Assembly (NCBI GenBank): GCA_000002445.1
Contig: CP000071.1
Span: 2,048,001 to 2,112,000, forward strand
DNA length: 64,000 bases
Reading direction: 5' to 3'
Source of the DNA: Trypanosoma brucei
Taxonomy: Eukaryota
A program made the position numbers. Shown here piece by piece: positions 46,001 through 52,000 of this stretch (the stretch's first letter is position 1; every line of letters begins with the position of its first letter).

Positions 46001-49000
46001 GCGACGGCCACCCGCAATCGTCTGAAGTTTTAATCGCCCTCGTGGCACCGGGTCCTTTCAATTGATCAGTTGACGGTTCCGAAGTGGACCGGAACGTTAT
46101 GGATGAAGTCGCAAGGGGAACGCTTCACAACAGCGAGGGCTGCCGCCTTATTCAACTGACGAATAATGTTAAACTGCATCGCGAAGGAAGTACACAACAG
46201 TGGGCAACAGCACCTCTCTCACCGTAACGGGTTTAGAAGTTTCCGGAGGTTTCAAACGACTGGCCACGAGACGGAAGAGTGTGGTAACAGCTTGTGCGGA
46301 AGAAAAATAAAAAGAAGATGCAAAAAAAATCTCAAATTGAGTGGGAAGAAAAAACAGTGCGGATATTTTTCTGCCCGGCAGTACCAACGCCGATTCCCTC
46401 TACATATGCGAACTAACTAAATGTATGAAATCCGGCAGGCAACTTTCGGTCGTTTCAATTTTCCCTTCCTCAGTCAGAATGCGGGTGGGAAGTAGTTACT
46501 GTTGAAGGAATGGGCTCAAGGTGGCGACAACCAACAACAGCTCCAACACAAACTTCAGGCCCCGCCACATTCGAGGGGTACAGACCAACAGCCCTACGAG
46601 TAAACCGTTTGTCGTGCCCCCGCTAAGGTTCCCCACCACTTCTAGCGGATGAACAAAAAAAAAGACGAAAGTGTCGCGCCACACCTCACTGCAATCTTCA
46701 GTGCCCCGTGGCTGTCTCTTGGGGTGCAATAAATGCTCTGCTATTTTCTGCCCATCACTTCCCACGAACGTGCATCCCCTGTCCAAGCCACTATCCTTCC
46801 ATGCTTCACTTCGGTCCCTCTGTTCCATCATATATAAATATATATGTGTGTGTGTGTGTGTGCCTTTGCCGTTTCATCGTCGTTCCATCGGCCATGCGCA
46901 TCACCTCGGTCGTGTTTGGCCAATAGATTTCCAAAAAAGAAAAAATCACTGCGGTGCGCAACTAATTTGTGTTCCTGCTCAAATGCGCCACTACACAAAC
47001 GACGTACCTCTTCAGCGACTCGTTGGGTGGCACTCTACCCATCGTTTGGTAACCGAAGATCAAACAAAATAAAAAGGTATCAGCATAGAAACAACTACTC
47101 TACCTCACACAACGTACCCGCCATACGAGCGTACGGTGGAAAGCAGGATAGGCAATCTTTTACCCTCACTCTGGTCTTTCAGAAGCATAAAACACAACCC
47201 CGGAACAAGATTAGACGTTCTTAACCGAAAGCAAACTTACACCTTCCAACATCATAACAAAGTTAAACAAGGTGAATCACACCGACCGTATAAGATAATG
47301 ATTAAATTGCAAGAAACGTCAGTGAAAGAATCTGTGTGCGCGTACTGCACCTTCATTACTAAGAACAAGGCAGATGGAGGGATTGAAATGCTTTCTTTCA
47401 ATTTTATCGCCACCGTTATTTTCATTATTTTGAAAGTGCAGATGGCGTGCGTAGTAGAATGTGTTAGGTTGTATCGTTTGAGCTAAGTCAACGTCCGTGA
47501 TAGGGACACACTCATTCAAAATAACCAGTCCTGACGTTCTGCTTTTTCTGTTACAGGATAAAGAGGGTGCACTCTCATTGCACAAAATCCAAAATCATCC
47601 ACCCTTCGGATAGCTTCCATCATCACAAAATATCCCTCAAGCATTTTCCACCCTTCCTATCAAGACTAAAATATTGCGGAAGTGAATTTAATCGCTTTCA
47701 ATTCTAGTTTGATTTAGTGAAGTGCTCCAAGCGTTCCAGTTAACAGCATCACAATATTTGTACCAAAAGCAAATGCTCCCATTATGTGTGCTTGAATATT
47801 TCCTCCCTACAATCATATATTATTGTGTCCCCCTACCCCCAGCACCGGATTGATTATTATTTCCGGTATCTTTTCCGTATTATTTTTGCTACCCCTATTT
47901 TTCCCATCCCCGGTTTTTCCATCCCTTTTTACATCCTTTTCTTTTACCATTATTGGTCAGCTTGATCCCATTGGAATAAATACGTGTGTTACAAATCATA
48001 CTCAGCCCCTCCTAACACCCCCTGTTGGAAATAATTCTTCGAGGTCGCCTTCCAACTTCTCAATGGCACTCTTCAGCCCTCTTCCCTCTACATTGTCCTC
48101 ACTTAAATCACCCATTAACGTCGCAATTTCCCGCAATTCACCCAACCAAGGTATGTCCTCAACCATCCCAGCCCTGGTGTTTATAATGTAATGCACACCC
48201 GGGCCAGGTACGTACCCCGACAGGAACTCGAGCGGCCAAAAGAGTTGCTTTTTGTGTTTTCCCAAAACGTACATAGTCCCGCTGCAACCATCGACACGGT
48301 GGTTCAGGCTGCGACGAAATTTTTCCACCAGCTTAGCAAACCCTTCTTTGTGCCCCTCCACATTTGAACATTGTGACACAAGGAAATTCCACCTCTTCTG
48401 GGCATCATTTCTTGGTCTCCACACTCTACGATTTTCACCAGAAACGCAATTTTCACAGCAAAGTTTGGTTTTCCTTCTTGACTTTCTGTCTGTTGCGCAC
48501 AGACACAGTAAATCCCTGCTCAGTGACACGGGCCCCTGATTCACTTCGGGTTGTGAAACATCTCCCTCACATACACGCTTTCTGGTTGCACTTCTTTCCC
48601 TCATTTTTTTCGGTTGATGTGGTATACCATAAAGGGCGCGATTCAGCATTTGCTTTATTATATCCCCGTTCAACACCCAGTGTCTCTTCGTCATATTCCC
48701 ATATATCGTTTCGGCAGCGGATGCTACTTGCTTTACCTTCTCCAGTTTCTCATCATCCAAACTTTCTTTGCCTGCATTTCCCTCGCTCATCGACAGTTTT
48801 GCTGCATCCCAAAACACCTTGGAGTATTCACAGCTTTCGTCATTGTTGTCAATACAGGTATTGCTTAATTTCACGTCTCCAGCCAACTCAAGACATCTTG
48901 ATCCAATCTTCGTCAATGACTTGTTGACTTCCTGGGCTTCTTCTACCCTTTGCAATGCACCTTTCGCGAAATTAATCATACCACATAGGGCTCCAAATTC

Positions 49001-52000
49001 ATCTTCATTGACAATTTTTCCCTCCCCGAAGATACTTGTTCGGAGCACCAAGGCAAACAAAACGACGCAATATTTAATACCACACATTTTTCCTGCTTTT
49101 CACTTTGCTCAATATATTCACCTCCTGAAGATACACAGAAAAGGAACTATAAAAGTAGCACAATCTGTACGTTCTACTATTAACATTTCCTGACACCACA
49201 AATATATAGCATTAACATTCCAACAACATATTGGATAAGTGTAACCGGGTCTCGGAAATAGGGAACCGATGCAACAAAAAACGAAATAGAGTTATAGCTT
49301 TTACCAATTACACCCCAAGGAGTTCCCGACAAAACATTGTTAAACGCAGTCCCGGTGTGTATGTGAGAGACCCCAGCCGAAAGTAAACTCATTTTCTCAT
49401 GCTTTAATGTGGAGACCACGTATATTTTAACAGAAACCTTTTTGTGTTGTCGTTGTAGCTTGCGCACACTGTTTAATTAAATGGTGAGAAACGCTTATAG
49501 AATGCTTTGGGTACAAATGGGATATACATACGTGAAAGTACAGATACGTGCGCACGTATGTGGTCTCCCCACACTGCTTCGCCCTGGGTTACGCATACTC
49601 GACAACTTCCTAGCTCGTTGAGAATTACCTCTCTACGAGGTGGAAAACCTTCCTCAAACTCACACACATAAGGAATTCCCTCCCTTTACAGTGGGAATAT
49701 TCACTGCTTTCGTTTATCACAAACTATAATAAGTGTCAAACAAACAATTGATTAGTTTTCCTTTCCACAAAGATATGCACGCTACACGCGAGTCACTACG
49801 AAGTGGAACATATTATCCTAGACTTTTCAACAGTCGGCGATTACTTCACACAAAATACGCTCAATGTGACAAGACAGTTATGCCAACACCAACACATACT
49901 CTCTACGGAAATAGTATCGGTTATCTCATGAGCAGTTTGTGTGTGCATGATGCTACGAATATTATGAGGGGATATATGTGCGCGCGTATTAGAAGAGGGT
50001 AAATGGACGTACAAGCAAAAAGATGTTATCGCGTATAAGCCTTAAAAAACTATGACCTCGGAATAAAGCAAAGAGTCATGGGTTTTAGAGCCCAGCTTTC
50101 ATTCAAAGTAACGTGCTGTACAAAAAAGGAATAAAAAAACAACGACCACCAAATATGGTCGGTATGGATCCATTGTTTTGGTTACTCTGTGGCTCAGTCG
50201 ATTTCATATCCACTGCTTTTTCAGTTTTAGTCTGTGGTCCCTTAATGGTCGGCTTCTCTTGGCCAACTTTTTCGGTCACATTATCTGATGTTTCGGTCGC
50301 GGGCTTCTCTTTGGGTTTCTCTTTAGATTCCTTCTCAGTACTTGCTCGTGCTGGTGCTGATACGGTAGCAGTTCTCTGGCTCTCATGGTTTGATTCACCC
50401 ACATTAATATCTGGGAGGTTGCTGCAGTCGGGGCCGGCCTCGCGATGTGCCTCCTCCTCCTTTTTGATAATTTGATCGACGCGATCGTGGGTGCACAGGT
50501 AATGGGTCGTTCTTCCACCTGTTGTAAAACGCAAAGGACATGAGTTTCCAACGGCTACCAACCTCACCTCTTCCGAGCCCAGTTTGCAGTGTCTTGATAA
50601 CGAATCTCCTACATACTTCGCCAACTTCTTACAAACAGCCCTGTGTACTCCATCCTTTCTGCACACTTCGTCAGTAGGCCACTGAAGTTCTATTTCGACG
50701 AAATCCGGTCCAAGGGCGAGGTTTGAACGGGCCGAAAACACACACAGGAATAGCAGCACTCTCCTCATTTTACACCTACGGCAGGAACAAAGAAAAGATA
50801 CGAGAAGAAAATCAATGCTCTAGTTTACACAACTTACCAAAAAAAATAACATACCCTGCACAGCAACGTACATGATGTTTCGCTAGCACTACAACCTCCC
50901 AAGTCTGCAAATACCCGCCTGTTGTGCACACGTGGAAGAAGCAGACCACAAAAAAAAACCGTTTGATTGCTAACCTTCCGTGACGGTTGAACAACAAAAC
51001 CACCATGTCCCCTGAGAAAATAGTGGGGTGCACCCTCCCTACATTTTATTATAGTGCAGTTTCAGCGTGGAAAACATGAGCATAAAACACAACCCCGGAA
51101 CAAGATTAGACGTTCTTAACCAAAAGCAAACTTACACCTTCCAACATCATAACTAAATTAAACAAGGTGAATCACACCGACCGTATAAGATAATGATTAA
51201 ATTGCAAGAAACGTCAGTGAAAGAATCTGTGTGCGCGTACTGCACCTTCATTACTAAGAACAAGGCAGATGGAGGGATTGAAATGCTTTCTTTCAATTTT
51301 ATCGCCACCGTTATTTTCATTATTTTGAAAGTGCAGATGGCGTGCGTAGTAGAATGTGTTAGGTTGTATCGTTTGAGCTAAGTCAACGTCCGTGATAGGG
51401 ACACACTCATTCAAAATAACCAGTCCTGACGTTCTGCTTTTTCTGTTACAGGATAAAGAGGGTGCACTCTCATTGCACAAAATCCAAAATCATCCACCCT
51501 TCGGATAGCTTCCATCATCACAAAATATCCCTCAAGCATTTTCCACCCTTCCTATCAAGACTAAAATATTGCGGAAGTGAATTTAATCGCTTTCAATTCT
51601 AGTTTGATTTAGTGAAGTGCTCCAAGCGTTCCAGTTAACAGCATCACAATATTTGTACCAAAAGCAAATGCTCCCATTATGTGTGCTTGAATATTTCCTC
51701 CCTACAATCATATATTATTGTGTCCCCCTACCCCCAGCACCGGATTGATTATTATTTCCGGTATCTTTTCCGTATTATTTTTGCTACCCCTATTTTTCAC
51801 ATCCCCGATTTTTCCATCCCTTTTTACATCCTTTTCTTTTACCATTATTGGTCAGCTTGATCCCATTGGAATAAATACGTGTGTTACAAATCATACTCAG
51901 CCCCTCCTAACACCCCCTGTTGGAAATAATTCTTCGAGGTCGCCTTCCAACTTCTCAATGGCACTCTTCAGCTCTCTTCCCTCTACATTGTCCTCACTTG

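What the first reader, a model, noticed from the sequence alone, without database searches (positions are those of the whole stretch)
48002..49087. 361-aa secreted Cys-rich protein family with no recognisable homology
It has a clear signal peptide, about 14 cysteines in conserved pairs ('LLCLCATD', 'KLCCENCVSG'), and no TM or GPI tail. This predicts a soluble secreted or ER-luminal protein. It is duplicated together with a surface-type gene and sits immediately downstream of trans-sialidases. I do not recognise a fold or family, so it may be a lineage-specific secreted factor.
Basis: inference. Interest (0 to 1): 0.5.

Follow-up and report, generated by a model that had tools for sequence, protein, structure and literature searches.

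The report
Known VSG-related gene of Trypanosoma brucei
The "unrecognisable" secreted cysteine-rich protein is Tb927.8.7300, an already annotated Trypanosoma brucei "VSG-related" protein: a coat-protein (class B VSG) N-terminal domain that has lost its membrane anchor, so it is an ordinary member of a known family whose exact job is still unknown.

The parts
48002..49087 (-). VR gene Tb927.8.7300 (XP_847559): 361-aa anchor-less class B VSG N-terminal-domain protein; this is the finding
49025..49087 (-). Signal peptide, codons 1-21 (MCGIKYCVVLFALVLRTSIFG | EGK); the cleavage site is inferred
   Evidence: This is the only Kyte-Doolittle-positive segment. The model shows helix 5-15 followed by low pLDDT at 14-21. 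The first 34-35 aa are identical to the chr 11 paralogue apart from residue 20.
48056..49063 (-). VSG_B (class B VSG N-terminal) domain, aa 9-344, including the CxC motif (C195, C197) and the CC..C motif (C210, C211, C214)
   Evidence: Invariant across 29 relatives: C35, C173, C195, C197, C210, C240, W314.
51897..52982 (-). Twin VR gene Tb927.8.7320 (XP_847561), 356/361 aa identical
50103..50768 (-). Tb927.8.7310: 221-aa small protein with a signal peptide, a 6-Cys head, a T/S/K/E/P-rich stalk and a GPI-signal-like tail; directly upstream of the VR gene
53996..54679 (-). Tb927.8.7330: 227-aa paralogue of Tb927.8.7310 (62% id overall; heads diverged, stalk and tail about 98% identical)
47184..50371 (-). 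Tandem repeat copy A: 3' third of the small gene, 1 kb spacer, VR ORF and about 0.8 kb of 3' region
   Evidence: 98.9% identical over 3188 bp to 51079..54264. Per-segment divergence is 0.6-1.8%.
51079..54264 (-). Tandem repeat copy B
47030..47195 (-). Remnant of the start of a further repeat unit (matches the region just upstream of Tb927.8.7330, 54664..54826, at 91.6%)
44799..48001 (.). Convergent strand-switch region. Plus-strand housekeeping genes (ERGIC/ERV, emp24, RCC1-like) end at 44798. The minus-strand unit (trans-sialidases, small gene, VR, small gene, VR) ends at 48002.
   Evidence: ORF map. Pfam of neighbours. No tRNA genes. The same arrangement is seen in T. equiperdum L003.

Best explanation
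The ORF is Tb927.8.7300, one of two tandem 'VSG-related' (VR) genes on chromosome 8 of Trypanosoma brucei TREU927. SHOWN: it encodes a signal peptide followed by a complete class B (b-type) VSG N-terminal domain and nothing else. It has no VSG C-terminal domain and no GPI-addition signal, and it lacks the flanking hallmarks of archive VSGs (70-bp repeats, 3'UTR 16-mer). It sits inside the chromosome as the last gene of a transcription unit that ends at a convergent strand switch. The anchor-less architecture is shared by its nearest paralogues on chr 11, 3 and 7, so it is an ancestral design of this clade and not a recent truncation. FROM THE LITERATURE: its mRNA is 3.7-fold higher in cultured bloodstream forms than in procyclic forms. 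VR proteins as a class are enriched in the bloodstream-form surface proteome. The 41%-identical anchor-less relative Tb927.7.180 is repeatedly detected as a protein whose abundance follows endocytic and ubiquitin perturbations, together with transferrin receptor subunits. The four-gene array is absent from T. evansi STIB805 and T. b. gambiense DAL972. INFERRED mechanism: the protein enters the ER and folds into the disulphide-bonded VSG three-helix bundle (monomer or trimer, as in class B VSGs). It is N-glycosylated and exported to the flagellar pocket as a non-variant, neofunctionalised VSG derivative at the host-parasite interface. Because it has no anchor, the GPI-valence rule predicts one of two fates. 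Alone (GPI0), it would be released or routed to the lysosome. Bound to a membrane-anchored partner, it would be retained in the pocket or on the surface. I consider retention by a partner the more likely fate, and the co-duplicated small GPI-signal protein encoded immediately upstream is the obvious candidate. That step is a hypothesis, not a result.
Against: No protein-level evidence was found for this particular gene; Tb927.8.7300/7320 are not in the held supplementary text of the surface proteome. The array is naturally absent from T. evansi and T. b. gambiense, so it is dispensable in those lineages, which sits awkwardly with the reported RIT-seq growth phenotype. The chr 7 and chr 3 anchor-less VRs have no small-gene neighbour, so the small protein cannot be a general partner for the clade. 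dN/dS between copies rests on only 8 differences.
Confidence: 0.9

Rival explanations
1. One reading: a novel lineage-specific secreted Cys-rich family with no known fold.
For: A signal peptide, many cysteines and no anchor are all real. Relatives are restricted to the T. brucei group.
Confidence: 0.01
2. A silent archive VSG, or a truncated VSG pseudogene fragment that serves only as a donor for mosaic VSG formation and is not expressed in its own right.
For: VSG_B domain. Sharp mosaic/gene-conversion boundaries in and around the gene. Lister 427 orthologues of the paralogues were catalogued in the VSGnome as 'VSG 1125.x'.
Against: No 70-bp repeats, no 3'UTR 16-mer and no CTD or GPI remnants. 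Chromosome-internal position within an ordinary transcription unit. Intact ORFs in both copies and in T. equiperdum. The same stop position is conserved in paralogues only 38-46% identical. Stage-regulated mRNA at a substantial level. A clade member is detected as protein.
Confidence: 0.03
3. A functionally decaying, dispensable duplicate: transcribed as a passenger at the end of the unit, with a product that (being GPI0) is simply degraded in the lysosome and has no role.
For: Absent from T. evansi STIB805 and T. b. gambiense DAL972. Copy number varies between 0, 1 and 2. GPI0 VSG and ESAG7 homodimers go to the lysosome. This protein was not found in the surface proteome supplements.
Against: Intact ORFs with conserved cysteines in all copies, and an architecture conserved across 4 loci at 38-46% identity. 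pN/pS about 0.4-0.5, though from tiny counts. Bloodstream-form up-regulation. A reported RIT-seq growth effect.
Confidence: 0.12
4. A truly soluble secreted effector: it is released from the flagellar pocket into host blood as a monomer or trimer and acts on a host factor, with no membrane partner.
For: Signal peptide, no anchor and no ER-retention motif. Class B VSG N-terminal domains are stable as soluble monomers or trimers.
Against: In bloodstream T. brucei, GPI0 reporters are mostly routed to the lysosome and not secreted. VR proteins as a class were recovered by cell-surface labelling. No secretome evidence was found.
Confidence: 0.2

Closest known systems
T. brucei VSG-related (VR) proteins (Marcello & Barry 2007 family; here Tb927.8.7300/7320, Tb11.02.1566, Tb927.7.180, and the chr 3 VR XP_843745)
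   Same: It is one of them. It has a b-type VSG N-terminal domain, lies chromosome-internally at a strand-switch region, lacks 70-bp repeats, and is up-regulated in bloodstream forms.
   Different: Nothing separates it from the family. Within the VRs it belongs to a sub-clade that lacks any C-terminal extension or GPI signal, whereas other VRs of 420-490 aa keep one.
Canonical class B VSGs (VSG3, VSG11, VSG615, mVSG1954)
   Same: The N-terminal domain fold and cysteine framework, including the CxC motif.
   Different: No C-terminal domain, no GPI anchor, no 70-bp repeats or 16-mer, not subtelomeric, and only 13-23% identity over the structurally aligned residues. By the inference in the best explanation it is therefore not a coat protein or a variant antigen.
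ESAG7 / ESAG6 transferrin receptor
   Same: ESAG7 is a VSG-derived subunit that lost its anchor. It is encoded next to the gene for a GPI-anchored subunit and is held on the membrane through it (GPI valence 1). Here an anchor-less VSG derivative is likewise encoded next to a gene for a protein with a GPI-type signal.
   Different: ESAG6/7 are a-type (class A-like) and homologous to each other. Here the domain is class B, and the neighbour is an unrelated small Cys-rich protein. No interaction or ligand is known.
Fam1 (Tb927.6.1310 array): b-VSG-derived flagellar pocket proteins
   Same: T. brucei-specific, b-type VSG-derived, no typical CTD, about 350 aa, tandem array at a strand-switch region, bloodstream-biased.
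   Different: Fam1 proteins have a predicted GPI anchor; this protein has none.
SRA / TgsGP / VSG-Sur (neofunctionalised VSGs)
   Same: Examples of VSG folds recruited to non-coat functions at the host interface.
   Different: Those proteins have identified activities and, to my knowledge, membrane anchors. No activity is known here.

Membership tests
Class B (b-type) VSG N-terminal domain, Pfam PF13206 VSG_B | Full-length profile match above the curated threshold | tested here: met
   231.6 bits against a cut-off of 25; E=2.1e-68; protein 9-344 on profile 1-352/352.
Class B (b-type) VSG N-terminal domain, Pfam PF13206 VSG_B | Elongated three-helix-bundle fold of class B VSGs, distinct from class A | tested here: met
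Class B (b-type) VSG N-terminal domain, Pfam PF13206 VSG_B | Conserved cysteine framework including the L-C-x-C motif | tested here: met
   C35, C173, C195, C197, C210 and C240 are invariant across 29 relatives. DLLCLCA aligns to DISCLCS of VSG615.
Class B (b-type) VSG N-terminal domain, Pfam PF13206 VSG_B | Concentration-dependent trimerisation and O-glycosylation of the top lobe | not testable with these tools
   Property reported for class B VSGs. No multimer prediction or biochemistry is available here.
Canonical (antigenically variable) VSG | C-terminal domain(s) after the N-terminal domain | tested here: not met
   Only 17 residues follow the VSG_B match. No CTD-like ORF downstream in any frame.
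Canonical (antigenically variable) VSG | Hydrophobic C-terminal GPI-addition signal | tested here: not met
   The highest 12-residue Kyte-Doolittle hydropathy within the last 25 residues is 0.05, against 1.4-2.6 in the relatives that keep a hydrophobic, GPI-signal-like tail.
Canonical (antigenically variable) VSG | Upstream 70-bp repeats and the conserved 3'UTR 16-mer | tested here: not met
   TRF finds no such array in 44-58 kb. There is no 16-mer match with 2 or fewer mismatches in the window, and none in the 3' region of either VR gene (the nearest 3-mismatch hit, 53313, is on the other strand, upstream of Tb927.8.7320).
Canonical (antigenically variable) VSG | Subtelomeric array, minichromosome or expression-site location | tested here: not met
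   Flanked by housekeeping genes (ERGIC/ERV, emp24, RCC1-like) and trans-sialidases. On the 2.48-Mb core chr 8 record.
VSG-related (VR) genes of T. brucei | VSG-like sequence, chromosome-internal at a strand-switch region, no 70-bp repeats | tested here: met
   Definition quoted from Jensen 2009. Exact sequence annotated 'VSG-related'. Named as VR in Carnes 2015.
VSG-related (VR) genes of T. brucei | Expressed (mRNA) outside the monoallelic expression site | not testable with these tools
   Literature only: the probe set Tb927.8.7300+1 is 3.7-fold up in cultured bloodstream forms, signal 16812.
ESAG6/ESAG7-type heteromeric receptor (works-like comparison only) | Anchor-less VSG-derived subunit encoded beside a GPI-anchored subunit | tested here: inconclusive
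   Adjacency to a gene with a GPI-type signal holds at chr 8 (x2), chr 11 and T. equiperdum chr 8, but not at the chr 7 and chr 3 relatives.
ESAG6/ESAG7-type heteromeric receptor (works-like comparison only) | a-type (class A-like) fold; the two subunits are homologous | tested here: not met
   The fold is class B; class A VSGs score weakly. The small neighbour has no Pfam match and no similarity to VSG.
ESAG6/ESAG7-type heteromeric receptor (works-like comparison only) | Physical heteromer and a host ligand | not testable with these tools
   No multimer prediction is available. The small-protein model is unusable (pLDDT 40.8).

The most novel reading that the evidence does not exclude
Tb927.8.7300/7320 (and Tb11.02.1566) form, with the small GPI-signal protein encoded immediately upstream (Tb927.8.7310/7330, Tb11.02.1565), a two-component, GPI-valence-1 surface or flagellar-pocket receptor. 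This would be a class B VSG analogue of the ESAG6/7 transferrin receptor. The ectodomains of both partners would be diversified by segmental gene conversion, while the stalk/GPI signal, the spacer and the VR signal peptide are kept nearly identical between chromosomes.
Probability: 0.15. Interest if true: 0.6.

Novelty: already known. Interest (0 to 1): 0.2.

Why it matters
As posed, the finding does not matter much. The gene is an annotated, published member of the VSG-related family, so there is no new fold or family here. [quoted passage not shown] The strict pairing of this VR sub-branch with a tiny family of GPI-signal proteins, together with the mosaic conservation pattern, gives a concrete and cheap experiment: tag both proteins, test for a complex, and look for a host ligand. 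That experiment could reveal another VSG-derived receptor, or show that the pair is simply a dispensable, strain-variable duplicate.

Tried and rejected
1. Plus-strand reading of the coordinates: full of stops. The gene is on the minus strand.
2. Word-indexed protein searches returned only 2-4 relatives. The exhaustive HMMER search was needed to see the family (29 hits).
3. The look-up of encoding contigs found no record for the TREU927 proteins P0001, P0005, P0019 and P0020. T. equiperdum and T. b. equiperdum orthologues were used instead.
4. AlphaFold of the small neighbour from a 4-sequence alignment gave pLDDT 40.8. No fold search was run on it because the result would be meaningless.
5. 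Pfam on the small proteins found nothing, and in particular no match to any VSG family. A 'split-off VSG C-terminal domain' is therefore unsupported, and the gene order (small gene first) also argues against a simple split.
6. The surface-proteome supplements (Gadelha 2015) were searched for these gene IDs in both 927 and 427 nomenclature, with no hit. The held text may be truncated, so this is weak negative evidence.
7. Nei-Gojobori pN/pS between the copies rests on only 8 differences (ratio about 0.4-0.5) and is uninformative. The chr 8 and chr 11 VR bodies are too diverged for dS.
8. The bacterial promoter/terminator scan and the tRNA scan of the strand-switch region are irrelevant or empty for a trypanosome.
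9. The cell-surface phylome supplement was searched for a 'Fam' number for these genes, with no hit.
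Full report
**1. The observation**

The coordinates 48002..49087 hold an intact ATG-to-stop ORF of 361 codons, but on the minus strand; the plus strand in that frame is full of stops. The protein has 14 cysteines at positions 2, 7, 35, 65, 78, 86, 173, 195, 197, 210, 211, 214, 240 and 268. Two of them lie in the signal peptide. There are two N-x-S/T sites. The only hydrophobic segment is residues 1-20, and the C-terminus (...EELFPTGGVRRG) is hydrophilic. The quoted motifs LLCLCATD and KLCCENCVSG are present. A twin ORF at 51897..52982 is 356/361 identical. Each VR copy is preceded on the same strand by a small ORF with a signal peptide and a hydrophobic C-terminal tail: 50103..50768 (221 aa) and 53996..54679 (227 aa). 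Two 748-aa trans-sialidases (Pfam BNR_3 + TS_C) lie further upstream on the same strand. The descriptive part of the finding is therefore correct, apart from the unstated strand.

**2. What it is**

The claim of 'no recognisable homology' fails at the first test. Pfam PF13206 (VSG_B, 'Trypanosomal VSG domain') matches residues 9-344 over profile positions 1-352 of 352, at 231.6 bits against a cut-off of 25 (E=2e-68). A plain sequence search of the PDB finds VSG615 (8ok8), with DLLCLCA aligned to DISCLCS.

The exact sequence is NCBI XP_847559, 'variant surface glycoprotein (VSG)-related, putative', from T. brucei brucei TREU927, on the 2,481,190-bp chromosome 8 record. The twin is XP_847561. 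The small genes are named in NCBI as hypothetical proteins Tb927.8.7310 and Tb927.8.7330, and the 748-aa genes are annotated as trans-sialidases. The finding is thus Tb927.8.7300 (by gene order, and as named in Carnes 2015).

**3. Why it is a VR and not a canonical VSG**

- Only 17 residues follow the VSG_B domain.
- No C-terminal domain or hydrophobic tail is encoded in any frame downstream of the stop.
- The conserved VSG 3'UTR 16-mer is absent.
- No 70-bp repeat array is present.
- The gene is embedded between housekeeping genes on the plus strand (an ERGIC/ERV-family protein, an emp24/p24 protein and an RCC1-like protein, ending at 44798) and trans-sialidases.
- It is therefore the last gene of a minus-strand transcription unit that ends at a convergent strand switch.

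**4. Family breadth and architecture**

Exhaustive HMMER against 1.84 billion representatives gives only 29 hits at E<=1e-3, of which 3 are below 1e-30. Every relative whose source name was looked up is a VSG or VR protein of the T. brucei group. The nearest clade consists of:

- the chr 11 VR, 356 aa, 46% identical (XP_828487; Tb11.02.1566 by its position next to Tb11.02.1565);
- a chr 3 VR, 366 aa, 38% identical;
- Tb927.7.180, 437 aa, 41% identical, with an acidic insert.

All of these stop at the same alignment position and have hydrophilic C-termini. More distant relatives of 420-530 aa mostly carry extensions ending in a hydrophobic, GPI-signal-like tail. The anchor-less form is therefore a conserved ancestral state of this sub-clade and not a recent truncation. 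Ten cysteines are invariant within the clade, and six across all 29 relatives.

**5. What is already published**

- Carnes et al. [quoted passage not shown] They state that the former were reported to be important for bloodstream-form growth in a genome-wide RNAi screen. They also report that all four genes are absent from T. evansi STIB805 and, per TriTrypDB, from T. b. gambiense DAL972.
- Jensen et al. 2009 list the probe set Tb927.8.7300+1 as 3.7-fold up in cultured bloodstream versus procyclic forms at a high signal, and Tb11.02.1566 as 8-fold up.
- Jackson et al. 2013 regard VRs as T. brucei-specific and structurally similar to T. congolense VSGs.
- Gadelha et al. 2015 found VR proteins enriched by surface labelling. 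I could not find these two gene IDs in the held supplementary text.
- Tb927.7.180, the anchor-less relative, is repeatedly quantified as a protein in bloodstream forms. Its abundance rises together with ESAG6/7 after knock-down of endocytic or deubiquitinase factors.

**6. Mechanism**

The architecture and family are shown. The rest of this section is inferred. A signal peptide with no ER-retention motif and a complete class B VSG N-terminal domain implies a folded, disulphide-bonded, N-glycosylated secretory glycoprotein. It may form monomers or trimers like class B VSGs.

In bloodstream T. brucei, the number of GPI anchors per complex governs fate. GPI0 truncated VSG and ESAG7 homodimers go to the lysosome. 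The GPI1 ESAG6/7 receptor is held in the flagellar pocket. GPI2 complexes reach the surface (Tiengwe 2017). An anchor-less VR is therefore either a short-lived or released soluble protein, or it is held by an anchored partner. I favour a partner-retained, non-variant, receptor-like role at the flagellar pocket or surface, but this is a hypothesis.

**7. The gene pair**

This part goes beyond the finding and was only partly followed up. The small neighbour has a signal peptide, a ~110-aa head with six invariant cysteines, a ~70-aa T/S/K/E/P-rich stretch, and a tail (…NGSIPTIFGGRCFFIPFLYSTLL) that looks like a GPI signal. It has no Pfam match. In a 5.8-billion-protein database it has only four cluster representatives: Tb927.8.7310, Tb927.8.7330, Tb11.02.1565 and TEOVI_000756100. 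Every one of them lies ~0.8-1.0 kb upstream of an anchor-less VR: twice in the window, in L002 (chr 11 of T. b. equiperdum), and in L003 (chr 8 of T. equiperdum OVI, a single unit). The chr 7 and chr 3 VRs have no such neighbour.

The DNA shows an inverse conservation pattern. The chr 8 and chr 11 units are ~94% identical from the 3' third of the small gene, through the ~1-kb spacer, to the first ~98 nt of the VR ORF (signal peptide plus 14 residues). In contrast, the VR bodies are only 46% identical as proteins and cannot be aligned by blastn, and the small-protein heads are far less conserved than the stalk and tail.

Within the window, the two repeat copies are 98.9% identical over 3188 bp (47184..50371 versus 51079..54264). 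The 5' two-thirds of the two small genes (through codon ~130) differ sharply, and a 166-bp remnant of another unit start lies at 47030..47195. The T. equiperdum chr 8 unit is a chimera of a chr 11-like small gene and a chr 8-like VR. These sharp boundaries indicate segmental gene conversion between loci. The pairing is compatible with a two-component receptor, but equally with simple co-duplication of neighbours.

**8. Verdict**

This is an already annotated, already published member of a known family (VR, a class B VSG N-terminal domain without an anchor). Novelty: already known. Interest is low. The residual value is the unknown function of VRs and the testable pairing with the small GPI-signal protein.

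Noticed in passing
window 50103-50768 (-), 53996-54679 (-); L002 8308-8982; L003 3957-4634: A tiny T. brucei-group family of small proteins (signal peptide, 6-Cys head, T/S/K/E/P stalk, GPI-like tail). It has no Pfam match and only 4 cluster representatives in 5.8 billion proteins. Every member lies directly upstream of an anchor-less VR gene. I did not find this pairing discussed in the papers searched.
   Followed up: partly
window 48990-50371 (-) versus L002 8720-10098: Inverse conservation between the chr 8 and chr 11 loci. They are about 94% nt identical across the small gene's 3' third, the 1-kb spacer and the first ~98 nt of the VR ORF, while both coding bodies are strongly diverged (VR 46% aa). 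The VR signal peptide and next 14 residues are identical between paralogues apart from residue 20. This suggests segmental gene conversion with a breakpoint near VR codon 33-36.
   Followed up: partly
window 50372-51078 versus 54265-54663: Within an otherwise 98.9% identical tandem repeat, the 5' two-thirds (through codon ~130) and upstream regions of the two small genes cannot be aligned by blastn (overall protein identity 62%). The T. equiperdum OVI orthologous unit carries a third, chr 11-like version, i.e. a chimeric unit.
   Followed up: partly
window 47030-47195: A 166-bp remnant, 91.6% identical to the region just upstream of Tb927.8.7330 (54664-54826), lies downstream of the last VR gene. 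It looks like the stub of a further repeat unit at the edge of the strand-switch region.
   Followed up: no
window 58984-61230 (-) and 61703-63949 (-): The two tandem trans-sialidase genes are 97% identical. Most of their 26 differences are clustered in three short patches (aa 171-175, 301-304, 417-431). That pattern suggests patchy gene conversion or local diversification rather than uniform drift.
   Followed up: no
window 34839-38039 (+): A long ORF with an extensive (A/E)EAARKKAEE-type repeat region. By position it is probably Tb927.8.7260, annotated 'kinetoplast-associated', which Carnes 2015 report as internally deleted and frameshifted in akinetoplastic T. evansi.
   Followed up: no
L001 9971-11314: Tb927.7.180 orthologue (437 aa): the same anchor-less VR fold, interrupted by a ~80-residue highly acidic E/D/S/K-rich insert after helix 2. 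One paper lists it as 'predicted GPI' and another as 'GPI: No'; its C-terminus is hydrophilic in my analysis.
   Followed up: partly
window 47000-58000: The VR/small-gene array has a lower G+C content (0.40-0.46) than the flanking housekeeping genes (0.49-0.53).
   Followed up: no
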